64,000 nt of DNA, taken from the NCBI GenBank assembly GCA_965261395.1, contig OZ253462.1:4576001-4640000 (forward strand). Direction: 5' to 3'. This DNA comes from Candidatus Latescibacterota bacterium (GTDB lineage Bacteria; Latescibacterota; UBA2968; UBA8231). Shown in pieces: positions 3,240 to 61,563 of this stretch. Each line of letters begins with the position of its first letter. The first letter of the stretch is position 1. The notes under the pieces are model-generated. The model was not told the DNA's origin. It saw nothing but the letters and a program-made list of their open reading frames with translations, and ran no database searches. The position numbers and the translations under genes were made by a program.

Positions 3240-3264
3240 ATCTTTTTATCATAATTTGAAAATC

Positions 3265-3492: not shown

Positions 3493-3499
3493 GATGATT

Positions 3500-3577
3500 T
3501 TACCTCCGTTGAGAGAAATCAATCCACTCGCTCGCGTCAGGTTCATTTGAAGATGCAGAGGACGCCCGTCCGAAGTG
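3500..3577 (-). pseudogene. DUF4258-type toxin 3' remnant
   Basis: TSDGRPLHLQ, then after a frameshift EPDASEWIDFSQRR*, directly upstream of the YgiT gene where this partner normally lies. Confidence 0.6.
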
Positions 3578-3616
3578 CCGAGACAGGTAGTGGTCTATTT
3601 TGAAATTCAAGCCGCA

Positions 3617-3958: not shown

Positions 3959-4051
3959 TTGAACCCTCCTTGTGTACCCGAAGTATAGCCACAGCAAGAT
4001 GGCTTTTGCACCGACTCTTTTTACATACACAGGCACAGGTTGATCAATTTA

Positions 4052-8354: not shown

Positions 8355-8439
8355 ATCGCATGTCTCCTTGGTTGATGATGCCTTGCTCGCTCTGCGGCCC
8401 CAATGTATCATTTCTCTTTCTCCTAATCAATCTGAGTCT

Positions 8440-48749: not shown

Positions 48750-48757
48750 TTTGTCCT

Positions 48758-49963
48758 TTACATTCGGCCGCTCGTCCTCAGCAGCTCTTCTACGAACTCA
48801 ACCTTGTCGTCTAGCTGAAGTTCGCGGTATAATTCCAGCGCTTGCCGCCACTGAAGTAAGGCATCAAAAGGAGCCTGATTCGACGCATAGATCCTCCCCA
48901 AGCTGACTCTAACGTCGGCCACGGCTTCCAAGTCCGATACTTTCTCAAACAGTTGCACCGCCTGCCGATATGCCTCCTCAGCCGCATTAAAGTTTTCAAC
49001 GTCCATATAGGCATCACCCAAAAGAGCCGCTTGTACCGCCCGACCTTTGTTGTCCCCAATCGCGTCAAATAGCTCCCTAGCCTGCTGGAACAACGCCGCG
49101 GCTTCTCGCGTGTCACCTTTCTCCCGTAGCACCTGCCCAAGACCGCCCATGGTGCGAGCCTCAAACTGTCTATTGCCTAATTTTTGTTGAATGGCCAGCG
49201 TCCGACGGTACATGGCTTCCGCCTCATCAAACCGACCCGTCTGGCTATATACGCCTCCCAGAACGCTGTAATGATGAGCCAACCCCTCGTCTCGCTGGAG
49301 CCGCTCCTCAATCGCAATGCCTTTTTTGAGGATGTCTTCGGCCTCGGCCAAACGCTTCTGCCCGAGATAGACTAGACCCAAGCCCTGATAGTGGCCAGAA
49401 ATACCCGGCAGATCGCCGAGTTCTTGGCAAACGTTCAGGCCCTGCTGGAAGTAGGCTTCGGCTTCTTCTGGTTTGTTCTGCTGGAGCACCAACTGCCCCA
49501 AGTTGCCGCATTCTTCAGCCCAATAGGCCCTATTTCCCGACGCCTCGTGGAGTTGCTGAGCGCGGGTGTGCAGTTCTTGCGCTTCTCCGATTTTTCCTTG
49601 GAGATGGGCGACAAAGCCTCTATTGCTATAGTTGACGGCCAGACGCTCCTCATCTCGGCGTTCACTATTGATCTCAAAGGCTGTATTGAGATAGTCAACC
49701 GCCTTATCCATCCGCCCCTTGACTTGGTACATAAGTCCCAAGCCGCTACACGCATCTGCTTCCAACTCATGTTCCTGTAACTGCCGTGCTTGCGCAAGGG
49801 CTCTTTGATACAATGCTTCAGCCTTGTCGAGTTCACCTTGTTCCTTGTGATAACGGCCCAAAAGGAGACAAGCCTTCGCTTGGGTGTGTAGATCGCGATC
49901 TTGTGCGACACGCGCACGCTGTATCGCTACGTCGCGTTCGGAAATTAACGGAATGATTTCCAT
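48758..49963 (-). CDS. TPR-repeat protein (40-aa TPR_12 type)
   Basis: Tandem NLG/GLG..EA....AL repeats; no signal peptide. Confidence 0.88.
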   Translation of the reverse strand: MEIIPLISERDVAIQRARVAQDRDLHTQAKACLLLGRYHKEQGELDKAEALYQRALAQARQLQEHELEADACSGLGLMYQVKGRMDKAVDYLNTAFEINSERRDEERLAVNYSNRGFVAHLQGKIGEAQELHTRAQQLHEASGNRAYWAEECGNLGQLVLQQNKPEEAEAYFQQGLNVCQELGDLPGISGHYQGLGLVYLGQKRLAEAEDILKKGIAIEERLQRDEGLAHHYSVLGGVYSQTGRFDEAEAMYRRTLAIQQKLGNRQFEARTMGGLGQVLREKGDTREAAALFQQARELFDAIGDNKGRAVQAALLGDAYMDVENFNAAEEAYRQAVQLFEKVSDLEAVADVRVSLGRIYASNQAPFDALLQWRQALELYRELQLDDKVEFVEELLRTSGRM

Positions 49964-49984: not shown

Positions 49985-50515
49985 TTATAACTTTTGCACT
50001 GCTTCCCATACCGGAGGCATCCCTCGTGCAAAAGAGGAAATGGTCCCCTCCTCGCTCACCACGTAAAACTGCGGTACGCCCCCGATCTTATAAGCTTGTG
50101 CAACCGCACCCGCCGAATCGACCAAAACGGGTATCGTTAGGTCATGTTTTTCGACGATTTGCTGCACTTCGTCCTTAGTACCTCGGCTGACCAGTAGCAA
50201 ACGACTCTCTTTGGGAAGGTCGTACTCTACCAAGTAACTTTCCAAGTCATTGCAATACGGGCAGGTAGGGGTTACAAAAATCAGCCCTATCCGCTGCCCC
50301 TTAAAGCTGCTGAGACTGACGTTACCTCCTTGCACAGAGGGCAATTCAAAATCAGGGGCGTCCGTTCCTTCAGACAGAGGCTCAGAACGCGTCGTATCCC
50401 CCTCGCTCCAGACGACCCCCGCTGGTTCCTCAGACTTCTCCTTGAAAATCAGCACGAGCAACAAGACCACACTAACAAGCCCGGCGATCTTCCAATGCTT
50501 TTGATCGGCCATCAT
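49985..50515 (-). CDS. Membrane-anchored TlpA/redoxin-family thiol-disulfide oxidoreductase
   Basis: TM anchor; APDFEL, CPYC, GVP cis-Pro. Confidence 0.85.
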   Translation of the reverse strand: MMADQKHWKIAGLVSVVLLLVLIFKEKSEEPAGVVWSEGDTTRSEPLSEGTDAPDFELPSVQGGNVSLSSFKGQRIGLIFVTPTCPYCNDLESYLVEYDLPKESRLLLVSRGTKDEVQQIVEKHDLTIPVLVDSAGAVAQAYKIGGVPQFYVVSEEGTISSFARGMPPVWEAVQKL

Positions 50516-51066
50516 TCGGTCCTCTCTTTTTCAATTACTTTTTGCGCGGATTGCACAATGTTCTCAATCGGGAAGCCTCCGCCCCTAACGGCCTCGACGA
50601 TCTTTTGTTCCCTATCCACCAAGAGCACGGTCGGGAAATTCGTGATGTTGAGATGCTCCATCGTCAGTAACAGCGTATCTACGACAATGGGAAAAGCCAA
50701 GCCATGCTCGGTGACTTTTTCCATCAATCCTTCCCGGGTGTTGGAAACCATCAGGATGGGAATATCTGTAGCCGCTTTCCCTATAATGGGGTACATGGTA
50801 TCACAGGCATCACAGCCCGGCAACGTAAAGACCAGTAGGTGGGATTCGCCCTTGTACAGATGGGTAGAGATCAGGCCGCCATCTAACTGTTCGAGTTCGT
50901 ATTCCGGGACGAGCTCCCCAAGCAGATGATCCAAACCTGTATCCATTAGGACGATTGTAGGATTGTTGATTTTTGTGGCTAACAATATACTGGTCCCCAA
51001 GAGGATGCCCAGCACCGTCGAAAGGAACAGCATCGCCACTGGCGGTTTTGGACGCACATCTTCCAT
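50512..51066 (-). CDS. Membrane-anchored redoxin-family oxidoreductase
   Basis: TM anchor; CDAC, FPIVVD, NFPTVLLVD. Confidence 0.8.
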   Translation of the reverse strand: MEDVRPKPPVAMLFLSTVLGILLGTSILLATKINNPTIVLMDTGLDHLLGELVPEYELEQLDGGLISTHLYKGESHLLVFTLPGCDACDTMYPIIGKAATDIPILMVSNTREGLMEKVTEHGLAFPIVVDTLLLTMEHLNITNFPTVLLVDREQKIVEAVRGGGFPIENIVQSAQKVIEKERTE

Positions 51067-51084: not shown

Positions 51085-52242
51085 CTAAAACGCATCGAAC
51101 AACGGCTGAATCCACCTATTGGCTGGCCGGACGATACTGCCTGCCCATATCAGAGTTAGGCTGACGCCAACCATCAAGGCCGGCGCAAAGGGGAGCGATA
51201 GTTCAATCTCTAACTGATCGTCCCATTCACGGAATAATCCCTTTTTTTCTAAGTCTTTTAATCGGCGCACTTTCCCGATGGTCAACGGCTTGCCCGTTCG
51301 GCCTATTAGCTCCCCCGCATCTCTACCCTGCCCGCCGAACGGAACTACTTCGACTCGGCCTTCCTCGGAGGCTTCATAAATCGACTGGTGTAGCACCATG
51401 CCCGGCTGTAAGGCATCGATAGAGACCGGCTGCACAAACTTCTGGTATTCGAGAGAATGGATATACACATAGACGTTCCGTATGCCCCACAGCACGGCCC
51501 AAAGCACTAGATAGATCAGGTAATCCCCGGTGCTGATGGCACTGAAGACACCTATTACAAGCCCGGGAACGACCAAGATGATTCTATTGGGTGCCTTGGT
51601 CAGATCTTCATGGATCAAATAGAGCACAGCCCCCACCACGATAGCCTCAGCAAGGGTCAACGTCCCGCCGACCAGCGTCGTCCCACCTAACACCAGCCCG
51701 CTCAGTCCTGCTGCCTCAACCCCAGAGCGCAACCATCCCCAACTCATGCCCTTTCTATGCTCACTTGCAGAGGTCTCGATGGGTTTTGCGGGTTTATGAA
51801 TGACCATAAGGACTATAAGAAAAACGGTATTGGTCAAAATGGTGTTGACCAACAAGGCCCAAAGAGGAGTATCCAGCGCAAAGAAGGCTAAGGAGAACGT
51901 CGGCCACTTCGGACCAAACAACGTACTCGGTATAGCCGCGACCATGGCCCAATACAGCTTAGCATCCCCCGCCCCCCAAAAGCCATACATAAACAACAGG
52001 TAGCCTACGGCAAAGCCCAGCAGAAAGGATAGGCCGATCTGTACGAGTGTAACCTCGCCCAATACCCACAACCCAATCTGCCCTATCAGCCCAAGACCGA
52101 GCAAAATCCAAGTAGCCGAGTTGGGAATCTCTCTATGGCTGAGGTCCGTATAGGTGGTGTAGGAGGCAACAACCATGATCGAGCACAACAGACCCCATTC
52201 TAACAAGAAGACGGGATCCATCTCATTCAGCAACATATCCAT
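51085..52242 (-). CDS. A24-family prepilin/preflagellin peptidase, long archaeal-like form
   Basis: TDLSHREIPN and WGAGDAKL catalytic Asp motifs; LQPGMVL insert; LPFAPAL C-terminus. Confidence 0.85.
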   Translation of the reverse strand: MDMLLNEMDPVFLLEWGLLCSIMVVASYTTYTDLSHREIPNSATWILLGLGLIGQIGLWVLGEVTLVQIGLSFLLGFAVGYLLFMYGFWGAGDAKLYWAMVAAIPSTLFGPKWPTFSLAFFALDTPLWALLVNTILTNTVFLIVLMVIHKPAKPIETSASEHRKGMSWGWLRSGVEAAGLSGLVLGGTTLVGGTLTLAEAIVVGAVLYLIHEDLTKAPNRIILVVPGLVIGVFSAISTGDYLIYLVLWAVLWGIRNVYVYIHSLEYQKFVQPVSIDALQPGMVLHQSIYEASEEGRVEVVPFGGQGRDAGELIGRTGKPLTIGKVRRLKDLEKKGLFREWDDQLEIELSLPFAPALMVGVSLTLIWAGSIVRPANRWIQPLFDAF

Positions 52243-52255: not shown

Positions 52256-52846
52256 TCAAAAAGCGGTTCCCTTGGACTCCGCTAGCCAACTTCCCGCTTG
52301 GCTCCATTGAGTCACTAAGGCATTCACGGACAGGGTTGCCCCTGTTATTCCATCGATATCCCGGCCTACAACTAAAGGCTCAGAGAGTGCTCGCCCGATC
52401 AGTTGGGCAAAGAAGGCGGTCGGATCGAAGCGGCCGTCGGCAAGCTCCCAAGATGCCAAGGGCAAAACGCCCGCAACGCGGTCTTCTCCTGGTGCTAAGA
52501 GTATCCCGACCAGTAAATCGCGACAGGTAGGACAGGCAATATCGTGGCGGACGACGACTAGCTTGTAGGCCAACGCTTCGTCCTCCGTAACAACGCGATA
52601 GGCTGATAACACACCAGAACGCGGCGCAGGCACGGCCTGATACACTTCTTTTAGGTGGAGAGAACTCGCTGTGGAATCAAACGCGGCGAGACCGCGCAGC
52701 ACAACTTCTTTAGGCGGAATGGACGGCAGGGGCGATTCGGGGCTGAGGCCCTTTTCATACAGGCCAATAAGCATAATGATCGCAGGTATTAGTAGCAGGA
52801 TTAAACCAGAGTAAATCCAGTATAATGGATGCTTAGGCTGTCCCAT
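52256..52846 (-). CDS. Membrane-anchored FMN-binding domain protein
   Basis: Flavinylation motif DGITGATLS; CPTC motif; N-terminal TM. Confidence 0.75.
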   Translation of the reverse strand: MGQPKHPLYWIYSGLILLLIPAIIMLIGLYEKGLSPESPLPSIPPKEVVLRGLAAFDSTASSLHLKEVYQAVPAPRSGVLSAYRVVTEDEALAYKLVVVRHDIACPTCRDLLVGILLAPGEDRVAGVLPLASWELADGRFDPTAFFAQLIGRALSEPLVVGRDIDGITGATLSVNALVTQWSQAGSWLAESKGTAF

Positions 52847-52892: not shown

Positions 52893-53744
52893 TTAGGGCA
52901 ACTTCGTCGTCTTCTTGGCTTCTATTTGTCCGTCCACCTCAACCTTATAGATATACACCCCGGCGGCCACCGCCTTGCCCGCCTCGTCGCGGCCATTCCA
53001 CACAAACCGATGACGGCCCGCCCCCAGCGGCCCGTCCCACAACTGCCGCACCCGATGCCCCAACACGTCGTAGAGCGCCAAGTGAACCCGCTCCTCGTCG
53101 GTCGCCAAGTCGAGGGGAATGATCATCTGGGGATTAAACGGATTGGGATAGCTTGCGCCCAGCCGATGCTGTGCCGGTCGGCCCGCGATCTCTGAGGTCA
53201 GCACCGCGGTCATCTGATCCTGCTCGGACTCCGAACAAGGAGTGGAGGAGCACTTACAAGATCCTTGCCAATAAATGTCGCCGTCCGCGCCATAGTAAGT
53301 GGTGCAGTACCGGTATGGCTCGGTTGAGTTAAACTCCGCGCAATCGTCGAAGTAGCTGCACTCAATCTTCGTATTGATCCGCTCGAGGCACATATCGGCA
53401 TCCGACACGGTGGGCGCGACCTCCTGCTCGGACTCCGAACAAGGGGTAGAGGCGTACCAGCAATTTGCTATGTAGAGGTTGCAGTACGCGTCCAAGCCAT
53501 AGGCGCAGTAGAGGTATTTATCTTGCGGATCCGCCTGCTGTGCGCCACAATCGAAACTGGGGTTGGAGCTACAGCCGATCCAAGTGGACCCGGTCCCACA
53601 CGACACCCTATCGTCTTCGGCGGCAACTTCTCTCGCGCCGAGCAGGACCACAAGCCCCGCAAGGGCACTTACGACCCACCCCAGCCTCTGCCGCATCGGG
53701 GCCAAGTCACTGGACGAGCCAGTGCATTCACGCAACCTGTTCAT
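52893..53744 (-). CDS. Conserved-leader Cys-rich repeat protein with FlgD-like C-terminal domain
   Basis: SD AAGGAGG; leader MNRLRECTGSSSDLAPMRQRLGWVVSALAG..AREVAA; 2 Cys modules; YPNPFNP..WNGRDE..GVYIY. Confidence 0.8.
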   Translation of the reverse strand: MNRLRECTGSSSDLAPMRQRLGWVVSALAGLVVLLGAREVAAEDDRVSCGTGSTWIGCSSNPSFDCGAQQADPQDKYLYCAYGLDAYCNLYIANCWYASTPCSESEQEVAPTVSDADMCLERINTKIECSYFDDCAEFNSTEPYRYCTTYYGADGDIYWQGSCKCSSTPCSESEQDQMTAVLTSEIAGRPAQHRLGASYPNPFNPQMIIPLDLATDEERVHLALYDVLGHRVRQLWDGPLGAGRHRFVWNGRDEAGKAVAAGVYIYKVEVDGQIEAKKTTKLP

Positions 53745-53805
53745 CTCTTTGCCTCCTTCGTGGCAGTACGCCCGCGGCTTGGTGCCGCTACGGTCCTGGA
53801 AGACC

Positions 53806-54798
53806 TCAAGGCAGCTTCGTCGTCTTTTTCGCTTCCACCTGCCCGTCAATTTCGACCTTATAGATATACACCCCGGCGGCCACGTCTTTGCCTACCTCGT
53901 CGCGGCCATCCCAAGTAAAACGATGACTGCCCGCCTGAAGCGGCCCGTCCCACAACTGCCGCACCCGATGACCCAACACGTCGTATACGGCCAACGACAC
54001 CCCCGCTGCGTCCTTGGCCAAATCAAGAGGGAGCACGACCGCCGGATTGAACGGATTGGGGTAGCTGTCGCCGAGCCCATGCTGCGCCAGTCGGCCTACC
54101 GCCGCTGGCGTCAGCACCGCGGTCATCTGCGCCGACTCGGCCTCCGAACAGGGGGTGGAGGAGCAGTCGCAATTTCTCAAATAAATGTCGCCGCGCGCGT
54201 CATAGTACGTGGTGCAGTGCCGATACGGCTCGGTCGAGTTAAACTCCGCGCAATCGTCGAAGTAGCTGCACTCTGTTTCTTGGTTGAAGCAACCATCGGT
54301 CGGCCCGGCGATCTCGGTCAGCTGCTCTACCTCCGAACAGGGCGTGGAGGAGCACTCACAAAATTCTCGAAAATAAATGTCGCCGCGGGCGTCATAATAC
54401 GTGGTGCAGTGCCGATACGGCTCGGTCGAGTTAGACTCCGCGCACCCGCTGTGGTGGCTGCACTCAATTTTTCGGGTCAGCACGATGGGCGCGGTCGGCT
54501 GCTCGGACTCCAAACAAGGCGTGGAGGAGTACCAGCAATCTACTATGTAGAAGGTGCAGTCCGCGTCCAAACCATAGGTGCAGTAGCGATATACCCCCTT
54601 CGGCTCCGCCAGCGCACAATCCGCGCTAGGGCTGCACGCGGTCCAAGTGTACGGGCACTTAGTGTCGGCTTCGGCTTCCGCGGTCCCGAGCAGAACCACA
54701 AGCCCGGCAAGGGCACGGACGATCCACCCGAGTCCCAGCCCCTGCCGCATCGGAGCCAAGCCACTGGACGAGCCGATAAATTCACACAATCTGTTCAT
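53806..54798 (-). CDS. Conserved-leader Cys-rich repeat protein with FlgD-like C-terminal domain
   Basis: Leader MNRLCEFIGSSSGLAPMRQGLGLGWIV..AEAEA; 3 Cys modules ending SSTPC.E.E; FlgD tail. Confidence 0.85.
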   Translation of the reverse strand: MNRLCEFIGSSSGLAPMRQGLGLGWIVRALAGLVVLLGTAEAEADTKCPYTWTACSPSADCALAEPKGVYRYCTYGLDADCTFYIVDCWYSSTPCLESEQPTAPIVLTRKIECSHHSGCAESNSTEPYRHCTTYYDARGDIYFREFCECSSTPCSEVEQLTEIAGPTDGCFNQETECSYFDDCAEFNSTEPYRHCTTYYDARGDIYLRNCDCSSTPCSEAESAQMTAVLTPAAVGRLAQHGLGDSYPNPFNPAVVLPLDLAKDAAGVSLAVYDVLGHRVRQLWDGPLQAGSHRFTWDGRDEVGKDVAAGVYIYKVEIDGQVEAKKTTKLP

Positions 54799-54899
54799 CT
54801 CTTGCCTCCTTCGTTGCCCAGTATTCCTGCGGCCCGGTGGCTATGGTACTGAGCAAGGGCCGGTACGAGTGCGTAAGGCCGCATAGACTCATCCTCCCC

Positions 54900-57083
54900 T
54901 CAAGGCAGCTTCGTCGTCTTCTTGGCTTCTATTTGTCCGTCCACCTCAACCTGATAGATATACACCCCAGCGGCCACCGCCTTACCCGCCTCGTCACGGC
55001 CATCCCACACAAACCGATGGCTCCCCGCCCCCAGCGGCCCCTGCCACACCTGCCGCACCCGACGCCCTAACACATCGTACACCGTCAGCGACACTCCCGC
55101 CGCGTCCGTCGCCAGATCAAGAGGGATCACCACAGCCGGATTGAACGGATTGGGGTAGCTATCGCCGAGCCGATGCTGCACCGGCCGCGCTACCACTGGC
55201 GTCATCACGGCGGTCGGCTGCTCGCCCAGAGAGCTCTTGAGCACATGTACGCCGCCCAATATCGGATCTAACACCACCAAGTCGACATCGCCGTCGCCAT
55301 CCATATCCCCAGACAGCACGTATCGCCCACTGCCCTCCAGCCGATGCCGCTCCCCTTCTTGAGTCGGGTTGACACGCCCGCCCCATTCGACAAACACCCC
55401 AAAACCCGAAGCGCGATCCCCACCTATAAACACCCAGTCGTCCACCCCATCGGCATTCAGGTCGCGCACCAATACCGGCGAGCGCCGCAACAGCCGATCA
55501 TCATACAGCACCTCGGCTTCTATGCGGTCCCCGGCTCCCTTGCTCTGCAAGACGATCCCCTTGCTCCCTTCGATCAGATCGAATGTGAACTCGGTGAGGA
55601 AATCCACCTGCCCATCGCCATCAAAATCGCCCACCCCTAACGGATCCATCCATTCATCGAATTCAAATACCTCGCCGATCTGAAGCTCCTCGCCCAAGGC
55701 CCCCACAATCCACCTGTTCTCCCGCCCAGCGAGCGATGTCCAGAACACGTCTAGGGTCCCATCGCTGGTAAAGTCGCCGATCTGAACGGGCGAATAGTTT
55801 TTGGAAGCCGCCACCTCTTCGGAGGTCCACACGCCCTGTTCGACCTCCCACACCGCTAACGTGCTTGAAAACTCCGCCGTACCCGCGATCACTTCCTCTG
55901 AAGAGCCTTCAACCGTAGTCCCCTTTACAAATAATTCGACCCGGCCGTCGCCATCCCAATCTACTACACTATGGATCTGTCTATCGACCTGCACGAGCAC
56001 CTCGATTTGGAGTTCCGGCCCGATAGACCAAACTTCTGTCTTGGGCTCACGGTTGCTTCTTGATATCGCGATTTCGTTTTTACCATCGCCCGTCAAATCA
56101 GCACCAAGCGCCTTTAAGACAACCACTGAGGAGACGGTTATCCCTCCAGTTATACTACCCTCCCCTGTGGCCGCTACTGCTACTTCCTCTATAACAGGCC
56201 CACGTTCCAAGGCACCTCGCCCGTCATTGAGGGCCATCAGCCAGCCCGCTTTAGACTCATCCCCTCCCGGCGATAGTGTTTTCGTTTGCGTTTCCCAGAG
56301 GCCGAACAGGTCTAAGTCGCCATCGCCATCCAAGTCCGTCAACACACCGCCCCCCCTCTCCCCTAGATACCCTCCTCCATACCCTCCATGAAGTGCTTCC
56401 CCTACGCCCAGCGCAATCGGATAGAAAACCGGCGGCGCAAAAAGGCCGGCCCCAGCAAAGCCAAAGTAGTACTCTACGGACGGCGGCGGCAGTTCCCCCT
56501 CTATCAACTCTTCCACGCCGGTCAACTCGATCAAGTCGATCTCAAACGCCTCAACCCCCTCGGTAGCCGAATCAGAATCCAGTATAAAACTTAGCTGAAT
56601 ATTTTTTAACAGGCCCTCCCATCCGTCTTGATCCGCCAGCGAGAACACCACTTCCTGCCACTCGGTGGTATAGACTATTTGTTGTACGAGGTCATCTTCA
56701 AGTTTTTCATAACTAAAAAAATCAAAACCTGAAGAGCTTTCCCACTCTATCCAAAAAGTACCTTCCGTAGGGCGGTCATGGATGGTGCGGAACCGGACGC
56801 GGACTTGGTCGAACAAGCCCGAATCGTACCCGATGGTCGAAGAAATCACTTCGACACCCGGGCTGGAGGCGTACAAACTATTGGTGACGGCGGGATCAAC
56901 CCTGATCCGCCACACACCGTCTTCGACCATCGATGGAAACTGGTGGAATTCACGCGCCCCCCCCCATGTAAGCGCTTCTTTGGCGGTCCACCCTTGCGTC
57001 GTCCCATCGTCAAAATCCCACTTGATCGCCTCGGCGAGACTACTCCACAGCACAATCCATATGACAATGGCGAATTTCAGCAT
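54900..57083 (-). CDS. Secreted FG-GAP/VCBS repeat protein with FlgD-like C-terminal domain
   Basis: Sec signal; DLDGDGDLD-type repeats; FlgD tail nearly identical to those of the two downstream genes. Confidence 0.85.
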   Translation of the reverse strand: MLKFAIVIWIVLWSSLAEAIKWDFDDGTTQGWTAKEALTWGGAREFHQFPSMVEDGVWRIRVDPAVTNSLYASSPGVEVISSTIGYDSGLFDQVRVRFRTIHDRPTEGTFWIEWESSSGFDFFSYEKLEDDLVQQIVYTTEWQEVVFSLADQDGWEGLLKNIQLSFILDSDSATEGVEAFEIDLIELTGVEELIEGELPPPSVEYYFGFAGAGLFAPPVFYPIALGVGEALHGGYGGGYLGERGGGVLTDLDGDGDLDLFGLWETQTKTLSPGGDESKAGWLMALNDGRGALERGPVIEEVAVAATGEGSITGGITVSSVVVLKALGADLTGDGKNEIAISRSNREPKTEVWSIGPELQIEVLVQVDRQIHSVVDWDGDGRVELFVKGTTVEGSSEEVIAGTAEFSSTLAVWEVEQGVWTSEEVAASKNYSPVQIGDFTSDGTLDVFWTSLAGRENRWIVGALGEELQIGEVFEFDEWMDPLGVGDFDGDGQVDFLTEFTFDLIEGSKGIVLQSKGAGDRIEAEVLYDDRLLRRSPVLVRDLNADGVDDWVFIGGDRASGFGVFVEWGGRVNPTQEGERHRLEGSGRYVLSGDMDGDGDVDLVVLDPILGGVHVLKSSLGEQPTAVMTPVVARPVQHRLGDSYPNPFNPAVVIPLDLATDAAGVSLTVYDVLGRRVRQVWQGPLGAGSHRFVWDGRDEAGKAVAAGVYIYQVEVDGQIEAKKTTKLP

Positions 57084-57201
57084 GATATCACAGAATCCTT
57101 TCCAACAGGTAAAACTCTGACAGACAGCGTACTATCCGTTAAAAAAAGAAAAGGGGGATGTGAAAGCTGCTTGGCGATTCTTGGGAGACCCGACGGGGGT
57201 T

Positions 57202-57342
57202 TTAAAACCAATACGGTTTAGTTAAGCACTATGTAAACGATGAAACGGGTGCCAAATAGATCGGCATTACACGAGTTATCCATCAGAATCTAGTGCTGCT
57301 ATCCGTGGCTATCAGCCGCTAACTAAACCGTATTAATTTTAA
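57202..57342. mobile_element. About 140-bp MITE-like element
   Basis: Terminal IR TTAAAACCAATACGGTTTAGTTA / TAACTAAACCGTATTAATTTTAA (21/23, inner 15 bp perfect). Confidence 0.55.
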
Positions 57343-57351
57343 GACAGCCTC

Positions 57352-57633
57352 TTAGCAAGCGCAGCAGTACCAAGCAGAGCACTGGATAGAACAATTCGAA
57401 TCCAGCCGACAGTCCCTACACTTGCACTTCTGTCCCCCGCCCGTGGCCTCGTCGCAACCTGAGCTAGACACCGGACCCTCTCTCCATGAGGTATCGTCGC
57501 AGGCAGCAGCTTCTCGCGCCCCGAGCAGGACGGCGACCCCCGTGAGGGCACTGATGACCCAACCCAACCCCAACCCCTGCCGAGCCGGAGCCAAACCGCT
57601 CGAGGACGTGAAAAATTCCCGAATATTGTCCAT
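57352..57633 (-). CDS. Conserved-leader Cys-rich peptide precursor A (10 Cys core)
   Basis: SD AAGGAG; 44-aa leader shared with 3 neighbours; 49-aa core. Confidence 0.85.
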   Translation of the reverse strand: MDNIREFFTSSSGLAPARQGLGLGWVISALTGVAVLLGAREAAACDDTSWREGPVSSSGCDEATGGGQKCKCRDCRLDSNCSIQCSAWYCCAC

Positions 57634-57686
57634 CTTATTTTACTCCTTTATTCTTTGCCGACTATCCGTGAAGTAAGAAGGGAAAA

Positions 57687-57721
57687 GGGGGCCGGCTTAA
57701 TCGCTACGATTAAACCGGCCC
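57687..57721 (-). terminator. Intrinsic terminator-like hairpin between the peptide genes
   Basis: GGGGCCGGCTTAATCG-CTA-CGATTAAACCGGCCC, followed on the minus strand by a CTTTT pyrimidine run. Confidence 0.55.
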
Positions 57722-57778
57722 TTTACACCTTAGCAAGAGAAACGGCTCTACAGCAGCTAAGGTTGTCTCAGACATTCT

Positions 57779-58060
57779 TCAAACGCAGCAGTAGTTCCCT
57801 CCACACCTTGTCACGCAGTTCGAGTCCAGCCAACAGTCCTGACACATCTTCGGCAATCTCCCGTTCGTAGCCTCGTCGCAACCTGCGTTGTACCCCTTAT
57901 CCCTTGTCCAGCGTCTTTCGTCGCAATCGGCAGCAGCTTCTCGCGCCCCGAGCAGGATCGCGACCCCCGCGAGAGCACTGATGACCCACCCGAGCCCCAA
58001 CCCCTGCCGAGCCGGAGCCAAACCGCTCGACGAGCCGATAAATTCCCGTAACATAGTCAT
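57779..58060 (-). CDS. Conserved-leader Cys-rich peptide precursor B (8 Cys core)
   Basis: Paralog of 57352-57633; shared GCDEAT.G and C.DC.LDSNC...C...YCC. Confidence 0.85.
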   Translation of the reverse strand: MTMLREFIGSSSGLAPARQGLGLGWVISALAGVAILLGAREAAADCDERRWTRDKGYNAGCDEATNGRLPKMCQDCWLDSNCVTRCGGNYCCV

Positions 58061-58198: not shown

Positions 58199-58214
58199 TG
58201 CAAGTTTCTTGCCA
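58199..58214 (-). promoter_or_regulatory. Sigma-54 (-24/-12) promoter
   Basis: Minus strand TGGCAAG-AAAC-TTGCA vs consensus TGGCACG-N4-TTGCW with exact spacing; adjacent to a sigma-54 activator gene. Confidence 0.8.
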
Positions 58215-58428: not shown

Positions 58429-61400
58429 CTACTTCTTCGGGCGTCGTACCCCGTATTTCTGCATGCGGTAACGCAGCTTCTCCGGGTGCATACCCAACAA
58501 CGCGGCGGCACCATGCACACCATAGATCCTCCAGTGGGTCGCTTGCAGGGCCGCTAGGATTTGCTGCTTTTCGTCCACCTCTTCGACCGGCGGCGCTTCG
58601 TCCGCGTCCCCGGTTCGTCGTTCAGTCGGCGGGTGCTCCCCATCCCCGGCGGGCGGCGCAACCGACGGCAACGACACATCCTCCACCCGCATGACGCCAT
58701 CTTCGCACAGCAAGACCGCGCGGTGGATCAAGTGCTCTAACTCCCGCACATTCCCCGGCCAAGCATACCCCTGCAAGTGCGCGACCACCCCCTCGTCTAG
58801 CGTCGGCACCGACCGCTTTAGGTCTTGGGCGAACCGCGCCACAAAATACGCCGTCAAAGTCGGTATATCCTCTCGCCGCTGCCGCAGCGGCGGAAGCGCT
58901 AGCGTGAAGACGCTCAGACGGTAGAACAGGTCTTCGCGGAACGTGCCCTCCTGTACATCCTGCCGCAGATCGCGGTTGGTCGCCGCCACCACCCGCACCT
59001 CCACGGTTACAGGATGCTCGCCACCGACGCGGGTCAGGGTCTTCTCCTCTAAAATGTGCAGCAGCACCCGCTGGGCTTCTAACGGCAAATCGCCGACTTC
59101 GTCCAGAAAGAGGGTGCCGCCATCGGCTAGTTCAAAGCGCCCGAGCTGGCGGGTGTCTGCCCCGGTAAAGGCCCCTTTCTCGTGGCCAAACAGCTCGCTT
59201 TCGACCAGCCCGGCGGGCAGCGCCCCGCAATTAACTTGGATAAAGGGCCGCTTGCGGCGGGTGCTTGTTTCGTGGACGGTCCGAGCGAGCAAACCCTTGC
59301 CGGTGCCGGTCTCGCCCAGCACCAGCACATTCATATCGGTCTCGGCTACCCGCGAGACCTGTCTCATTACCTCGTGCATGACTCGACTGTGGCTCTGCGC
59401 CATATGGTCAATAGGCCGGAGTGTCCTTTCGAGGGCGTCGATGCGCTCGGTTTTGGCGTCGGGGAGGACCTGAATCTTCAAGCCGACTACCCCGGACCTC
59501 AGGCCATCCCGGTCTATGGTCTGCACCTCAAAGCGGTAGTCACCCACCGGCAAGGCGTTATACGCCACTACATTGGCGGTGGTGAACGCGCTCCACTGTT
59601 CTGCTGGGCCGTAGCCTAACAGGCGGTGGCTATAGCGCATCAGCTTCGCGCCGGTGCGGAAGCTGATACCTTGGAAGCGAACGCGAATTTCCGGGGTGTG
59701 CTCTATACAGGATACGGCTTCGGGCGCAGCAAAGAGGCTCCCGGCCATCACCTCGCGGATCACCAAGCACGGAGACGTGTCGCCGGGCTGGTAGGCGACC
59801 AGTCCGGCCCGCGTCCCAAACCACAGTTGGCCATGGCGGTCGCATTGGATAGCCTCGACTACGTTTCCGAGAGCAGATGGTCCTAAGCGGATGCTTTGAA
59901 AGGTCTGGCCGTCGTAGCGGATCACTCCCCCGCCGCTGGTCCCGATCCAAACATTGCCCTGCCGGTCGGCCGCCAGCGCCAAGATGCCATTGGCCACCAG
60001 CCCGGAATTATTGGCGGTAAAGTGGCCCACCTGCCCCGACGAGCGGTCGAGGATGAAAAGCCCCTTAGCCGTACCTATCCACAAGGTATTTTGATACTCC
60101 CACAAGACATTGACATAGGCGATGGTCTCCGCCTCGGCCATATCCACCGGGCGAAATTGACCGTCTTTGTACCAATAGAGCGCCGGTATTCTTGCGTAGA
60201 AACCAATCCAGAATACCCCGTTTTGGTCTTGCAGCAAGGAACGACACTCGTCGCCTGCCCACTCGTCGAAGGGGATGAAGCGATTGGCTTCTATCCAGCC
60301 GAAGTGGCCCTGGAGCGTGCCAATCCATATACGCCCTTGCTGATCTGTGCACAGCCCGGTGATTTTTTCGGCGTGGGTCTCTTCAGTCACCGTGATCACT
60401 TGCGGCGTTTGGCCCCCCCACTTGTACACCCGGCCGGTGTCCCCACCACTCCAAACCTGCCCCTCTTCATCCACCACCATCGCCGAAACGGTTTCATCCG
60501 TATTGAGCGGACAGATTTGGCCCTCTTCCATATAGGCCATACCGCCCATCGTGCCGATCCACATCCGTCCCCCATGGTCTTCTCCCAAATGGCAAATCTC
60601 GCGGTCGGGCAGGCCGTCGGCTTCCGTGTAGCACCGGATGCTGGCCGGATCGCAAAAAATCAGCCCGCCGCCCCAAAGCCCGATCCAGATATTGCCCTCG
60701 CGGTCCTCGTAGGTCAGGCGCGTACCCGAAAAGTCTGCATCCGGCAGGGAGACGGAAAAATGATGCCACTCTTGATCATTGTGTACAACCACCCCTCGGC
60801 GTGCCAGCCAGAGTCGGTCCCCATCGTCAGCCCGCACGTGCCGCACCCCGTTCTGCGTGCCCCTATCGGTCTTATGGCCCACATGGATGAATGCAAACTG
60901 CTCGTCTCGCGGATCGTAGCGGCCAATAAAGGTTTCGGGGGCCGTGTACAGGAAGGCGATCCACAGATGGCCGGAAGAGGTTTGGGCGAATTTCCAAGGA
61001 TGTTGAATCGCCTCCTCGTCAATACCCATGCACCGCCCATCTAAGCTGATGATGCCTCGGTCCCACGTCGCCAGCCAGGTAGTACCCGCCGCGTCGGTGG
61101 CCATATCGTACACCCGCCCCAAAGGTTGGCCGCCAACTTCGGTTATGAGCTTTGTGCAGCGATCTTGGGCAAACCAAGCCACGCCCGCGCCAGTCAACGC
61201 CACAATCGAACCATCCGGCTGGACTTGCAAACCCATGATCTCGTTGGAAGGCAGGCCGTGCTCAGTGGTGTACACCTGAAAGCCGCGCCCGTCATAGGCG
61301 GCAATCCCCCCGCCGAACGTGCCGAACAGCAGCCGCCCGTCGGCTTCCTCGGCAATGGCCATGACCGTCAGATTGGGCAGGCCGTCTTTGAGGCCAAAGT

Positions 61401-61563
61401 TATCAAAATGGGCGCTGTCGAACCGGCTGACGCCGCCGTCGGCCGTGGCGATCCAGAGAAAGCCCTGGCGGTCTTGGTAGATGTCTTCCACGTGCATCCC
61501 AGCCAGCCCATCAAAGACCGTGTACTGGCTGCTCAACACGTGCTCAAAGGATATGTCGCTCAT
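58429..61563 (-). CDS. Sigma-54 enhancer-binding protein with N-terminal two-component-regulator beta-propeller and Y_Y_Y domain
   Basis: DGL..D..G.LWI.T..GG repeats; GETGTGK, ESELFGHEKGAFTGA, LFLDEVG, WPGNVREL, Fis HTH. Confidence 0.92.
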   Translation of the reverse strand: MSDISFEHVLSSQYTVFDGLAGMHVEDIYQDRQGFLWIATADGGVSRFDSAHFDNFGLKDGLPNLTVMAIAEEADGRLLFGTFGGGIAAYDGRGFQVYTTEHGLPSNEIMGLQVQPDGSIVALTGAGVAWFAQDRCTKLITEVGGQPLGRVYDMATDAAGTTWLATWDRGIISLDGRCMGIDEEAIQHPWKFAQTSSGHLWIAFLYTAPETFIGRYDPRDEQFAFIHVGHKTDRGTQNGVRHVRADDGDRLWLARRGVVVHNDQEWHHFSVSLPDADFSGTRLTYEDREGNIWIGLWGGGLIFCDPASIRCYTEADGLPDREICHLGEDHGGRMWIGTMGGMAYMEEGQICPLNTDETVSAMVVDEEGQVWSGGDTGRVYKWGGQTPQVITVTEETHAEKITGLCTDQQGRIWIGTLQGHFGWIEANRFIPFDEWAGDECRSLLQDQNGVFWIGFYARIPALYWYKDGQFRPVDMAEAETIAYVNVLWEYQNTLWIGTAKGLFILDRSSGQVGHFTANNSGLVANGILALAADRQGNVWIGTSGGGVIRYDGQTFQSIRLGPSALGNVVEAIQCDRHGQLWFGTRAGLVAYQPGDTSPCLVIREVMAGSLFAAPEAVSCIEHTPEIRVRFQGISFRTGAKLMRYSHRLLGYGPAEQWSAFTTANVVAYNALPVGDYRFEVQTIDRDGLRSGVVGLKIQVLPDAKTERIDALERTLRPIDHMAQSHSRVMHEVMRQVSRVAETDMNVLVLGETGTGKGLLARTVHETSTRRKRPFIQVNCGALPAGLVESELFGHEKGAFTGADTRQLGRFELADGGTLFLDEVGDLPLEAQRVLLHILEEKTLTRVGGEHPVTVEVRVVAATNRDLRQDVQEGTFREDLFYRLSVFTLALPPLRQRREDIPTLTAYFVARFAQDLKRSVPTLDEGVVAHLQGYAWPGNVRELEHLIHRAVLLCEDGVMRVEDVSLPSVAPPAGDGEHPPTERRTGDADEAPPVEEVDEKQQILAALQATHWRIYGVHGAAALLGMHPEKLRYRMQKYGVRRPKK

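What the first reader, a model, noticed from the sequence alone, without database searches (positions are those of the whole stretch)
52893..58060. A conserved 42-44-aa leader shared by four genes, with two possible processing sites
Seen: M..(L/I)(R/C)E(F/C)..SSS(G/D)LAP(A/M)RQ(G/R)(LG)LGW(V/I).(S/R)AL.G...LLG.(R/A)E..A at 58060, 57633, 54798 and 53744. It is far more conserved than the cores and longer than an ordinary Sec signal. The neighbouring FG-GAP gene has a plain Sec signal instead. The leader ends in an AxA SPase I-like site, but RQG|LGLGWV also resembles a class III (prepilin) site: basic residue, Gly, hydrophobic helix. An A24 peptidase is in the cluster. Alternatively ARQGLGL is a degenerate Tat motif (SRRxFL), which would suit folded cargo. 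The 53744 copy lacks the Gly (RQR|LGW), which weakens the class III reading.
Basis: partly seen in the sequence, partly recalled or inferred. Interest (0 to 1): 0.85.

Follow-up and report, generated by a model that had tools for sequence, protein, structure and literature searches.

The report
Peptide leader tied to orphan FlaK-like peptidase
Four genes share a special 44-residue export leader that, in a group of uncultivated Latescibacterota, always sits next to an archaeal-type (FlaK-like) membrane peptidase and is attached to fast-evolving, cysteine-rich secreted peptides, which points to a previously undescribed peptide-maturation pathway.

Summary
Four minus-strand genes (ATGs at 58060, 57633, 54798, 53744) share a 42-44-aa N-terminus, and these are the only copies in the 6.55-Mb genome. 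The leader is a rare Latescibacterota family: 20 of 30 same-genus genomes carry 1-20 copies, but only 43 of 1.84 billion cluster representatives match. It is fused to hypervariable Cys-rich ~48-aa cores or to tandem-module proteins with T9SS tails. Conservation reflects purifying selection (dN/dS 0.19 at dS 0.67) and stops exactly at A42-x-A44. All 24 full-length homologues of the cluster's A24 peptidase that I examined have a leader gene within 5 kb. They fall into five co-diverging cassette types (30-88% identity). All five leader types keep F7, S12, G13, L21 and W25, a basic-x-small|Leu junction and a small -3/-1 site. The peptidase is FlaK-like with both catalytic Asp residues. It is the only A24 in a genome with no pilus ATPase, platform protein or N-methyl pilins. 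Best reading: a dedicated bipartite leader in which signal peptidase I releases the core at AxA and the orphan A24 enzyme acts at RQG|LGLGW. The Tat reading is not supported. Cleavage itself is untested.

The parts
57779..58060 (-). Small precursor 1 (93 aa). Leader is residues 1-44 (57929-58060); Cys-rich core is residues 45-93 (8 Cys).
   Evidence: AF2 model: residues 1-20 disordered, helix 24-43, core pLDDT ~90.
58001..58060 (-). Leader N-region of precursor 1 (residues 1-20, MTMLREFIGSSSGLAPARQG), predicted cytoplasmic. Carries the family-invariant F7, S12 and G13.
   Evidence: dN/dS 0.19.
57986..58009 (-). Junction R18-Q19-G20|L21-G-L-G-W25, the proposed site of action of the A24 peptidase.
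   Evidence: Lowest dN/dS in the leader, 0.06. R-x-G-[L/M] in 58 of 58 unique small precursors and [RK]-x-G-[LW] in 20 of 22 long ones. L21 and W25 invariant over five types.
57929..57943 (-). c-region R40-E-A42-A-A44 with a small -3/-1 pair (signal peptidase I-type site). Sequence conservation ends here.
   Evidence: A44 in 45 of 46 and A42 in 38 of 46 unique small precursors. Equivalents in the other types are AQA, AYA, TDA and VRA.
57352..57633 (-). Small precursor 2 (93 aa, 10 Cys in the core) with the same leader.
54900..57083 (-). FG-GAP repeat protein (727 aa) with a plain Sec signal and a T9SS type A C-terminal domain. It is the constant downstream partner of the small precursor genes.
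   Evidence: PF13517/PF01839 and TIGR04183 at 30.8 bits against a cut-off of 23. 59 of 62 small leader genes have an FG-GAP gene start within 1.2 kb downstream.
53806..54798 (-). Long precursor (330 aa): leader, tandem Cys-rich modules (20 Cys) and a T9SS type A sorting domain.
   Evidence: TIGR04183 at 29.7 bits against 23.
52893..53744 (-). Long precursor (283 aa): leader with G20-L21 deleted, Cys-rich modules and a T9SS sorting domain.
   Evidence: TIGR04183 at 27.2 bits. The orthologue in L049 keeps RQG|LGW.
52256..52846 (-). Membrane-anchored 196-aa protein with an invariant CxxC and a DGI(S/T)GAT.S motif (FMN_bind-like). Likely periplasmic redox partner.
   Evidence: PF04205 is weak, E 0.003-0.015 in 3 of 3 members, below cut-off.
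51085..52242 (-). FlaK-like A24 (GxGD) aspartyl peptidase, 385 aa. D33 and G92-D93 (GAGDAK) are invariant. Carries a soluble beta-domain at about residues 270-347.
   Evidence: PF01478 above cut-off; FlaK_Arch E 2.2e-7, below cut-off; invariant Asp residues in 19 sequences; only A24 in the genome; nearest outside relatives are FlaK-type; model and FlaK top hit.
49985..51066 (-). Two membrane-anchored TlpA/redoxin-like thioredoxins (184 aa with CDAC; 176 aa with CPYC).
   Evidence: A Trx184-like gene lies next to the A24 gene in all five cassette types.
43845..49963 (-). TPR protein (401 aa), GT1-like/transglutaminase-core fusion (828 aa), GT2 (359 aa) and DUF4159 (451 aa). Conserved tail of cassette A, with homologues of the first three in cassette B.
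58429..61563 (-). Sigma-54 enhancer-binding regulator (1044 aa) with a Reg_prop/Y_Y_Y beta-propeller sensor and no predicted TM segment.
   Evidence: Heads the cassette in most loci.
58200..58214 (-). Sigma-54 type -24/-12 promoter TGGCAAGAAACTTGC, 154 nt upstream of the ATG at 58060.
   Evidence: The same element lies mostly ~135-165 nt upstream (up to 256 nt) of 26 of 82 leader genes, against 50 of 4246 background 300-nt windows.

Best explanation
The 44 residues are a dedicated, bipartite export and maturation leader of a Latescibacterota-specific peptide system. They are not an ordinary Sec signal and not a Tat signal.

Anatomy, shown by sequence:
- A ~20-residue N-region that stays in the cytoplasm, with the invariant motif F7-x4-S12-G13.
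- A basic-x-small|Leu-x3-Trp junction (R18-Q19-G20|L21-G-L-G-W25).
- A 15-19-residue hydrophobic helix.
- A small -3/-1 site (A42-x-A44) at which conservation stops.

Proposed mechanism, inferred. The precursor inserts N-in through Sec. Signal peptidase I cuts after A44 and releases the Cys-rich core into the periplasm. There the cassette's membrane-anchored thioredoxins, and probably the CxxC/FMN_bind-like protein, form its disulfides. Cores with a T9SS tail leave through the T9SS. The tail-less ~48-aa cores probably travel or act with the FG-GAP/T9SS protein encoded directly downstream.

The cassette's orphan FlaK-like A24 aspartyl peptidase recognises the conserved N-region, plausibly through its soluble beta-domain. 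It cuts at the cytoplasmic face, at or near G20|L21, either before or after the signal peptidase I cut.

Separate odds: the AxA cut defines the mature N-terminus, about 0.8. The A24 enzyme acts on this leader, about 0.6. Both together, about 0.5.
For: **Family and selection**
- The leader profile finds 1-20 copies in 20 of 30 same-genus genomes, none in the 24 genomes of three other families, and one weak hit (E 0.005) in the six other genera of the same family.
- It finds only 43 of 1.84 billion cluster representatives.
- The cores are hypervariable and Cys-rich.
- Leader dN/dS is 0.19 at dS 0.67, junction 0.06, alignable cores 0.45. Conservation therefore acts on the peptide and is not the result of recent copying.

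**Linkage to the A24 enzyme**
- In the 30 same-genus genomes: 17 have both, 3 have the leader only, 0 have the A24 only, 10 have neither. Kin are not independent.
- All 24 full-length A24 homologue loci examined have a leader gene within 5 kb: type A 10, B 9, C 1, D 1, E 3.
- Each peptidase type (30-88% identity) has its own leader type.
- The type E loci were fetched as a test of the linkage, and 3 of 3 had a leader gene directly after the A24 gene.

**Orphan enzyme**
- The own closed genome has one PF01478 hit, which is this gene.
- It has no T2SSE, T2SSF or N_methyl hit.
- 14 of 19 A24-bearing genomes of the genus have no T2SSE above cut-off.

**Enzyme looks active**
- D33 and GxGD D93 are invariant in 19 sequences.
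- The nearest outside relatives are 359-362-aa FlaK-type peptidases carrying PF06847/PF06819.
- FlaK 3s0x is the top Foldseek row, although not significant.

**Both candidate sites are conserved in all five leader types**
- Invariant F7, S12, G13, L21 and W25.
- R-x-G-[L/M] in 58 of 58 small precursors.
- Small -1 and A/V/T at -3 in every type.

**The signal peptidase I route is needed and available**
- The long members carry TIGR04183 tails.
- The genome has SprA, PorU and an S26 signal peptidase.

**Complex prediction: weak support**
- Score 0.35, best of 3 controls 0.00.
- The mark was reached by 58 of 80 solved complexes and 2 of 110 mismatched pairs.
- At 0.60 or under, it was reached by only 7 of those 80 solved complexes and by both mismatches that passed.
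- The runs agree in at least 94% of contacts, and partner pLDDT is at least 59.
Against: - No cleavage has been measured, and neither site is demonstrated.
- The junction is not a textbook class III site. Position -2 is Q or E in types A and B. Position -1 is Ala or Val in type C. The window's 53744 copy and 2 of 22 long members lack the Gly. Position +5 is Trp, not Glu.
- One genome (G003) keeps an intact small precursor with no A24 orthologue and a truncated FMN_bind-like gene.
- G026 has 12 leader hits, of which about 9 are type A, but only a type B peptidase.
- Three genomes (G011, G022, G024) have leaders without any A24 hit. All three carry long leader proteins, G011 also a truncated 38-aa leader ORF, and some copies are decayed.
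- The A24 model is of low confidence (pLDDT 60), and its match to FlaK is not significant (E 0.68).
- The PDB sequence profile search finds no A24 structure.
- The complex score is only a weak pass.
- The A24 enzyme could instead act on the membrane-anchored redox proteins that are also always adjacent.
- The function of the invariant F-x4-SG motif is not explained by known A24 substrate rules.
Confidence: 0.5

Rival explanations
1. Ordinary Sec/signal peptidase I signal with a conserved N-terminal extension, analogous to the ESPR of autotransporters. The extension would tune targeting or export speed. The A24 enzyme would have nothing to do with the leader and would serve another substrate.
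For: - A small -3/-1 site is conserved in every type and marks the end of conservation.
- An S26 peptidase is present.
- T9SS cargo needs periplasmic release.
- G003 keeps an intact precursor without an A24 orthologue.
- G026's type A leaders have no type A peptidase.
Against: - All 24 A24 loci examined have leader genes within 5 kb, and types co-vary.
- No other plausible A24 substrate class exists in the genome: no N_methyl pilins and no pilus ATPase or platform protein.
- Junction dN/dS is 0.06.
- No Pfam family, ESPR included, matches the small precursors at E <= 0.01.
Confidence: 0.25
2. Pure class III (pre-archaellin or prepilin-like) signal. The A24 enzyme cuts at G20|L21, and the mature protein keeps the hydrophobic helix as a membrane anchor or as a subunit of an unknown filament. 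AxA is not cut.
For: - FlaK-like peptidase with both Asp residues.
- A basic residue, a small residue and Leu, followed by about 19 hydrophobic residues.
- The pattern of conserved helix plus variable head resembles pilins.
- Archaeal PibD is known to process non-pilin substrates (recalled, not checked here).
Against: - No assembly ATPase, platform protein or N_methyl domain in the genome.
- A conserved small -3/-1 pair sits exactly at the conservation boundary in all five types.
- Long members carry T9SS tails that require a soluble periplasmic intermediate.
- Trp, not Glu, at +5; Q or E at -2; Ala or Val at -1 in type C.
Confidence: 0.1
3. RiPP-style leader. The cytoplasmic N-region (F-x4-SG) would be the recognition sequence for the cassette's cytoplasmic enzymes: the GT1-like/transglutaminase fusion, the GT2 and the TPR protein. 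These would modify the precursor, for example by glycosylation, before export, much as in glycocin clusters. The A24 enzyme and/or signal peptidase I would then remove the leader. This can coexist with the best explanation.
For: - GT/transglutaminase, GT2 and TPR genes are conserved in cassettes A and B, and a GT4-like gene sits in cassette C.
- They have no TM segments.
- The combination of Cys-rich precursors, thioredoxins, glycosyltransferase and peptidase resembles sublancin-type clusters (recalled).
- The invariant Ser/Gly motif is not explained by A24 substrate rules.
Against: - The minimal cassettes D and E show only Trx, A24 and peptide in the stretches examined; no GT homologue was found at E <= 1e-5.
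- No known RiPP leader or recognition family was hit.
- Modification is entirely untested.
Confidence: 0.15
4. Degenerate Tat signal (ARQGLGL read as SRRxFLK) exporting folded cargo.
For: - TatC is present in the genome.
- 5 of 58 small leaders have RRG.
- Type E has SRRGL.
Against: - 53 of 58 unique small leaders have RQ or RE. Types C and D have HK/RK or SK.
- The cargo is Cys-rich and is encoded next to membrane-anchored, presumably periplasmic thioredoxins. This fits unfolded Sec export and periplasmic oxidation.
Confidence: 0.02

Closest known systems
Class III signal peptides processed by archaeal-type A24 peptidases (FlaK with pre-archaellins; PibD, also with non-pilin sugar-binding proteins). 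Substrate rules recalled, not checked here.
   Same: A GxGD aspartyl peptidase of the FlaK type is encoded beside its presumed substrates. The leader has a cytoplasmic N-part, a basic residue, a small residue (Gly) and a hydrophobic residue (Leu), then a ~19-residue hydrophobic stretch.
   Different: - No type IV filament ATPase, platform protein or N-methyl pilins in the genome.
- Position -2 is Q or E rather than K/R in types A and B, and Trp is invariant at +5.
- The N-part is long (20-36 aa) and carries its own invariant motif (F-x4-SG).
- A conserved signal peptidase I-type site follows the helix.
- Cargo is hypervariable disulfide-rich peptides and T9SS proteins.
Extended signal peptide region (ESPR) of autotransporter and two-partner-secretion proteins (recalled)
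   Same: A conserved N-terminal extension in front of an otherwise normal n-h-c Sec signal, restricted to one class of secreted proteins.
   Different: No sequence similarity, with no Pfam hit at E <= 0.01. Here the extension co-occurs and co-varies with a dedicated intramembrane peptidase, and the cargo is mostly tiny.
Eukaryotic and archaeal signal peptide peptidase (SPP, GxGD family) cutting signal-peptide remnants after signal peptidase (recalled; GxGD family reviews seen only as listings)
   Same: If both sites are used, a GxGD protease would cut an N-in signal peptide that signal peptidase has already released, or will release, from its cargo.
   Different: A24-type enzymes are not known to do this in bacteria. 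Nothing here shows the order of the cuts or that both happen.
Precursor families with a conserved leader and hypervariable core (conotoxin superfamilies, mussel MgCRP-I, prochlorosins)
   Same: Multi-copy genes with a strongly conserved pre-region and a hypervariable, Cys-framework-only mature peptide. For MgCRP-I I saw only the abstract start in the listing. The general statement is in PMC12426817, passages seen.
   Different: This is a bacterial, Sec-type leader with a TM helix and a dedicated A24 peptidase. Each small gene is paired with an FG-GAP/T9SS gene.
Glycocin (sublancin-type) gene clusters (recalled)
   Same: Cys-rich precursor, thiol-disulfide oxidoreductases, glycosyltransferase and a leader peptidase in one cluster.
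   Different: Those use a double-glycine leader cut by a C39-ABC transporter. Here no ABC/C39 transporter is part of the conserved cassette, and the leader is membrane-inserted.

Membership tests
Class III (prepilin/pre-archaellin) signal peptide | Cognate A24 peptidase with both catalytic Asp residues encoded in the genome or locus | tested here: met
   PF01478 at 36.8 bits against 26.5. D33 and GxGD D93 invariant in 19 sequences. Adjacent in 24 of 24 loci.
Class III (prepilin/pre-archaellin) signal peptide | Gly (or Ala) at -1 directly followed by a ~20-residue hydrophobic stretch | tested here: met
   R-x-G-[L/M] in 58 of 58 small and [RK]-x-G-[LW] in 20 of 22 long members. Hydrophobic segment at residues 19-41. 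Exceptions: Ala or Val in type C, and the window copy at 53744 lacks the Gly. The cut itself is not shown.
Class III (prepilin/pre-archaellin) signal peptide | Lys/Arg at -2 (archaeal rule, recalled) | tested here: not met
   In 46 small type A members, position -2 is Q in 42 and R in 4. It is Q or E in type B. It is K or R only in types C, D and E.
Class III (prepilin/pre-archaellin) signal peptide | Glu at +5 / N-methylation domain (bacterial type IV pilins) | tested here: not met
   Trp is invariant at +5. There is no PF07963 hit in the genome, and no Pfam or NCBIfam hit on the leaders.
Class III (prepilin/pre-archaellin) signal peptide | Filament assembly machinery (T2SSE ATPase, T2SSF platform) present | tested here: not met
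   No PF00437 or PF00482 hit in the closed 6.55-Mb genome, with controls positive in 13 of 14. 14 of 19 A24-bearing genomes of the genus have no T2SSE above cut-off.
Sec / signal peptidase I signal peptide | Positively charged n-region, hydrophobic h-region, c-region with small residues at -3 and -1 | tested here: met
   R5 and R18 in the n-region; h-region 21-39. A42 in 38 of 46 (V in 4, T in 2) and A44 in 45 of 46. AQA, AYA, TDA and VRA in the other types. An S26 peptidase is present. SignalP was not available.
Sec / signal peptidase I signal peptide | Typical length (~18-30 aa) with an unconstrained n-region | tested here: not met
   Leader length is 44 aa, and up to ~60 in types B and E. 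N-region dN/dS is 0.19, with invariant F7, S12 and G13 over five types.
Tat signal peptide | Twin-arginine motif S/T-R-R-x-F-L-K before the h-region | tested here: not met
   RQ or RE in 53 of 58 small leaders. HK/RK in type C and SK in type D. TatFind was not available.
Peptidase A24 / FlaK (for the 385-aa protein) | Pfam A24 domain above gathering score and two catalytic Asp residues (D...IPN and GxGD) | tested here: met
Peptidase A24 / FlaK (for the 385-aa protein) | Equivalog-level match to preflagellin peptidase FlaK (NF040695) | tested here: not met
   30.7 bits against a cut-off of 330. 24-28% identity to FlaK-type proteins. Foldseek to 3s0x gives E 0.68.
T9SS type A cargo (long precursors and the FG-GAP protein) | C-terminal TIGR04183 sorting domain above cut-off, and T9SS core genes in the genome | tested here: met
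   29.7, 27.2 and 30.8 bits against 23. SprA and PorU are present above their cut-offs. The two 93-aa precursors have no such domain.
ESPR / known RiPP leaders (double-glycine, NHLP, Nif11) | Match to the family profile | tested here: not met
   0 Pfam families at E <= 0.01 and 0 NCBIfam families at E <= 0.1 for both small precursors.

The most novel reading that the evidence does not exclude
The leader is cut twice, and the second cut is a signal. After signal peptidase I releases the core, the orphan FlaK-like peptidase acts like a bacterial signal peptide peptidase. It releases the invariant ~20-residue N-peptide (…F-x4-SG…RQG) into the cytoplasm. There the peptide is sensed by the TM-less beta-propeller domain of the adjacent sigma-54 activator. 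Successful export of the peptides would then feed back on the sigma-54 promoters found upstream of the precursor genes.
Probability: 0.08. Interest if true: 0.9.

Novelty: new variant of a known kind. Interest (0 to 1): 0.74.

Why it matters
A24/GxGD prepilin-type peptidases are known almost only as maturases of type IV filament subunits. Here an archaeal-type (FlaK-like) member sits in bacteria that lack any filament machinery. In five co-diverging versions it is genetically locked to a family of hypervariable, disulfide-rich secreted peptides with a unique conserved leader.

If the enzyme does process this leader, three things follow:
- The substrate range of the family widens to peptide maturation.
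- A new and easily recognised leader motif becomes available for mining Cys-rich peptides, possibly bacteriocin-like, from uncultivated Latescibacterota.
- There would be a simple two-gene test system for how A24 enzymes recognise substrates.

The constant pairing of each small peptide gene with an FG-GAP/T9SS gene also raises a testable idea: small tail-less peptides may be carried out through the T9SS by a partner protein.

Tried and rejected
**Tat reading.** Rejected on motif counts. TatC is present, so absence of the pathway cannot be used as an argument.

**DNA-level explanation (recent duplication or gene conversion).** Rejected, because pooled dS in the leader is 0.67 with dN/dS 0.19.

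**Searches that gave nothing usable**
- A PDB sequence profile search with the A24 alignment found no relevant structure. The only row was an unrelated kinase at E 0.075.
- Foldseek of the A24 model gave no match with E <= 0.001. FlaK 3s0x was the top row at E 0.68, and the model's pLDDT is only 60.
- Fold searches with the small precursor model gave only weak rows. Laterosporulin bacteriocins came top in both: Z 2.9, rmsd 3.5 over 43 residues, and E 2.3 with prob 0.44. This is a hint and not a classification.
- The ESM Atlas gave no usable hit for the core.
- The search for sequencing runs listed no RNA holder.
- Pattern TGGCAC-N5-TTGC over the whole window was not above chance: 7 matches against 5.5 expected. 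Only the position-specific count upstream of leader genes is enriched.

**Literature.** Searches returned nothing on this system. I saw only listings and abstract starts, plus passages of PMC12426817 found with 'find', which are general. Supplementary files were not consulted, and none bears on a claim here.

**Not available or untested**
- SignalP, FlaFind, TatFind and PilFind were not available. Statements on their rules are recalled.
- I considered and could not test whether the A24 enzyme acts on the N-terminal anchors of the adjacent thioredoxin or FMN_bind-like proteins. No conserved small-residue junction was evident in them by eye.

Full report
**1. The observation**

The minus strand between 52893 and 58060 carries four genes whose products begin with the same 42-44 residues (alignments A1 and A3):
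- 57779-58060, 93 aa
- 57352-57633, 93 aa
- 53806-54798, 330 aa
- 52893-53744, 283 aa from the ATG at 53744

Mean column identity over the leader is 81%, with 21 invariant columns. The 53744 copy has a two-residue deletion that removes G20-L21. These are the only copies in the organism's single-contig 6.55-Mb genome. The neighbouring FG-GAP gene has a plain ~19-residue signal, and an A24 peptidase gene lies downstream.

**2. What the leader is attached to**

The two 93-aa proteins have no Pfam or NCBIfam match. Behind the leader they carry a ~48-residue core with 8-10 Cys. The two long proteins carry tandem Cys-rich modules (14-20 Cys) and a T9SS type A sorting domain above the TIGR04183 cut-off. 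The genome encodes SprA and PorU.

An AlphaFold model of the first small precursor, built on a 34-row alignment, has three parts:
- residues 1-20 disordered
- a helix at 24-43
- a confident compact beta-alpha-beta-beta core at 46-93 (pLDDT ~90)

Its best fold matches are the defensin-like bacteriocins laterosporulin 3 and 10. The scores are weak, so I treat this only as a hint.

**3. A rare, lineage-specific family under purifying selection**

The leader profile finds 1-20 copies in 20 of 30 genomes of the same genus. It finds one weak match in another genus of the family and none in three other families of the class (61 genomes). Against 1.84 billion cluster representatives it finds 43 proteins with E <= 0.001. 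Nearly all are short Cys-rich proteins with the leader at the N-terminus. Record titles place these genomes in Candidatus Latescibacterota, with a few MAGs labelled otherwise.

From 40 fetched loci plus the window I collected 62 unique type A proteins, 46 small and 16 long. In the 46 small ones, leader columns 4-44 have mostly 0-1 bit of entropy. Positions E6, F7, S10-S12, G13, L14, P16, R18, G20, L23, G24, W25, S28 and L36 are invariant. Core columns have 2-3 bits apart from the Cys columns, and the switch falls exactly after A44.

Pooled Nei-Gojobori estimates:

| Region | dN/dS | Note |
|---|---|---|
| Whole leader | 0.19 | dS 0.67 |
| Junction, residues 18-25 | 0.06 | lowest in the leader |
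| Cores | 0.45 | 430 pairs whose cores could be aligned |

The conservation is therefore selection on the peptide. It is not the result of recent duplication or gene conversion.

**4. Gene context: a cassette in five co-diverging versions**

In the window the order is: sigma-54 activator, two small precursors, FG-GAP/T9SS protein, two long precursors, a 196-aa membrane-anchored protein, the 385-aa A24 peptidase, two membrane-anchored redoxins, a TPR protein, a GT1-like/transglutaminase fusion, GT2, DUF4159. The 196-aa protein has an invariant CxxC and a DGI(S/T)GAT.S motif. Its FMN_bind match is weak but present in 3 of 3 members.

The same order recurs in nine other loci (type A, peptidase 75-88% identical). 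A paralogous version (type B, 37-42% identical) has its own leader type directly after the second redoxin gene in 7 of 7 fetched loci, plus two more loci from the named collection.

Three further types extend the pattern:
- **Type C.** A genome of another family has FMN_bind-like, Trx, Trx (interrupted by a transposase) and A24 (29-31% identical), followed by three small Cys-rich genes with a third leader type.
- **Type D.** A fourth leader type sits beside a 34%-identical peptidase.
- **Type E.** As a test of the linkage I fetched the loci of a third within-genus paralogue (353-354 aa, 30-33% identical). All 3 of 3 have Trx, A24 and then a small Cys-rich gene with a fifth leader type.

Altogether, 24 of 24 full-length peptidase loci examined have a leader gene within 5 kb. 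Two truncated peptidase genes do not.

At genome level within the genus, 17 genomes have both, 3 have the leader only, none has the peptidase only, and 10 have neither. Related genomes are not independent, so I give no P value.

**5. What is conserved across the five leader types**

In a 12-sequence alignment of types A-E, the invariant leader positions are M1, F7, S12, G13, L21 and W25.

| Type | Junction | -3/-1 site before the core |
|---|---|---|
| A | RQG\|LGLGW | AEA or AAA |
| B | R(Q/E)G\|LALGW | AQA |
| C | (H/R)K(A/V)\|LSGSW | AYA |
| D | SKG\|LSLGW | TDA |
| E | RRG\|L(T/P)VAW | VRA |

R-x-G-[L/M] occurs in 58 of 58 unique small precursors, and [RK]-x-G-[LW] in 20 of 22 long ones.

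Both candidate processing sites are thus conserved at long range, and so is a third element, F-x4-SG in the N-region.

**6. The peptidase**

PF01478 is above its gathering score. The FlaK equivalog model matches only weakly. D33 (TD..REIPN) and D93 (GAGDAK) are invariant in 19 sequences spanning all types.

Only 54 relatives turn up among 5.8 billion proteins. The nearest outside the cassette family are 359-362-aa FlaK-type peptidases with the archaeal C-terminal domains, at 24-28% identity over about 90% of the length.

The AlphaFold model is of low confidence (pLDDT 60). It shows TM helices plus a small beta-domain at about 270-347. FlaK 3s0x is the top but non-significant Foldseek row.

This is the only A24 gene in the genome. 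The genome has no T2SSE ATPase, no T2SSF platform and no N-methyl pilin domain, with positive controls in 13, 13 and 8 of 14 reference genomes. In the genus, 14 of 19 A24-bearing genomes lack a T2SSE hit above cut-off. The enzyme is therefore an orphan with respect to type IV filaments. The leader-bearing proteins are its only evident substrate candidates.

**7. Complex prediction**

Peptidase alignment plus leader residues 1-55 gave a verdict of weak support:
- Score 0.35 (runs 0.44, 0.30, 0.35), best of 3 controls 0.00.
- The mark was reached by 58 of 80 solved complexes and 2 of 110 mismatched pairs.
- At 0.60 or under, it was reached by only 7 of those 80 solved complexes and by both mismatches that passed.
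- Runs agree in at least 94% of contacts, and partner pLDDT is at least 59.
- No contacts were released.

I count this as a small increment only.

**8. Mechanism**

*Shown by sequence:* the four-part anatomy, the selection on it, the linkage to the peptidase, the absence of filament machinery, and the presence of the T9SS, S26 and Tat pathways.

*Inferred.* Signal peptidase I cuts after A44, for three reasons. The small -3/-1 pair is conserved in all types. Conservation ends there. The long members must become soluble periplasmic T9SS cargo. The small cores are single copies of the modules found in the long proteins (compare P0005 with the first module of the 330-aa protein). They are therefore most likely released too.

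The A24 enzyme most likely acts at the basic-x-Gly|Leu junction on the cytoplasmic face, as its relatives do. The invariant F-x4-SG motif would then be a docking element, possibly for the enzyme's soluble beta-domain.

Whether the A24 cut comes before or after the signal peptidase cut, and what it achieves, is open. An SPP-like clearing or signalling role is the boldest reading.

**9. Points against**

- The junction departs from the class III rules: Q or E at -2, Trp at +5, and Ala or Val at -1 in type C.
- G003 retains an intact small precursor although its cassette is truncated and lacks the peptidase.
- G026 has 12 leader hits, about 9 of them type A, and only a type B enzyme.
- G011, G022 and G024 have no A24 hit. 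All three carry long leader proteins, G011 also a truncated 38-aa leader ORF, and some copies are decayed. This fits dependence of the small peptides on the cassette but does not prove it.

**10. Regulation and partners (side results)**

A sigma-54 -24/-12 element lies 154 nt upstream of the first precursor. An equivalent element lies mostly about 135-165 nt upstream (up to 256 nt) of 26 of 82 leader genes, against 50 of 4246 background 300-nt windows. The adjacent sigma-54 activator has a beta-propeller sensor and no TM segment.

59 of 62 small precursor genes are followed within 1.2 kb by an FG-GAP/T9SS gene. This suggests that peptide and propeller protein act or travel together.

**11. Comparison with what is known, and novelty**

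The system works most like class III signal processing by FlaK/PibD-type enzymes, but it fails several membership criteria (see the membership table). It shares with ESPR signals the idea of a conserved N-extension. It shares with SPP the idea of a GxGD enzyme acting on a signal peptide. It shares with conotoxin-, MgCRP- or prochlorosin-type families the conserved leader and hypervariable core.

No Pfam or NCBIfam model covers the leader or the cores. Four literature searches found nothing on it (listings only, plus passages of PMC12426817).

I rate it a new variant of a known kind: A24-dependent, class III-like leader processing recruited to the maturation of secreted disulfide-rich peptides.

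Noticed in passing
window 54900-58060; loci L027-L066: Each small precursor gene is followed by an FG-GAP repeat gene with a T9SS tail: 59 of 62 within 1.2 kb on the same strand. These two-gene modules are repeated up to about 10 times in some genomes and are also scattered far from the cassette. This suggests a peptide-plus-propeller partnership, possibly piggy-back T9SS export.
   Followed up: partly
window 58200-58214 (-) and upstream of leader genes in other loci: A sigma-54 -24/-12 promoter (TGGCAC-N5-TTGC) lies mostly about 135-165 nt upstream (up to 256 nt) of 26 of 82 leader genes, against 1.2% of background 300-nt windows. The adjacent sigma-54 activator has a beta-propeller sensor but no TM segment, so it probably senses a cytoplasmic ligand.
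   Followed up: partly
window 52256-52846 (-): A 196-aa membrane-anchored protein with an invariant CxxC and a DGI(S/T)GAT.S motif (weak FMN_bind match). It is conserved in cassette types A, B and C. It could be a flavin-linked periplasmic thiol oxidase feeding the two adjacent thioredoxins.
   Followed up: partly
window 57695-57745 (-): A GC-rich hairpin followed by a T-rich run (ggccggtttaatcgtagcgattaagccggcc, then ccttttccc) lies between the two small precursor genes. It looks like an intrinsic terminator or attenuator inside the operon.
   Followed up: no
L061 7115-8434: In the distant type C cassette, a 439-aa transposase-like ORF sits between two fragments (101 aa and 99 aa) of what looks like the second thioredoxin gene, so that cassette may be damaged. 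The transposase call is made by eye from the ORF translation. No family search was run on it.
   Followed up: no
L088 8144-8497, L089 9571-9909: The type E leader carries the S-E-S-G motif twice (LLTSESGIVQPFLANESGF). This is an internal duplication of the invariant N-region element.
   Followed up: no
window 46263-48749 (-): An 828-aa fusion of a GT1/MGT-like glycosyltransferase region and a transglutaminase-core (cysteine protease-like) domain, with no TM segment. It is conserved in cassettes A and B, and its role is unknown.
   Followed up: no
window 2001-4000: GC content drops to 43% against about 60% elsewhere in the window. This may be a foreign insert or an RNA gene region.
   Followed up: no
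L057 (G003) 8130-8624: A decayed cassette. The FMN_bind-like gene is truncated (residues 1-165) and no peptidase or thioredoxin genes follow. Yet one small precursor with an intact leader and its FG-GAP partner remain.
   Followed up: partly
L071, L080, L086 (record titles): Some MAGs carrying the cassette are labelled Gemmatimonadetes/Gemmatimonadota or Rhodothermales in their record titles. Their peptidases are 87%, 38% and 51% identical to the window's. The phylum labels are probably inconsistent.
   Followed up: no
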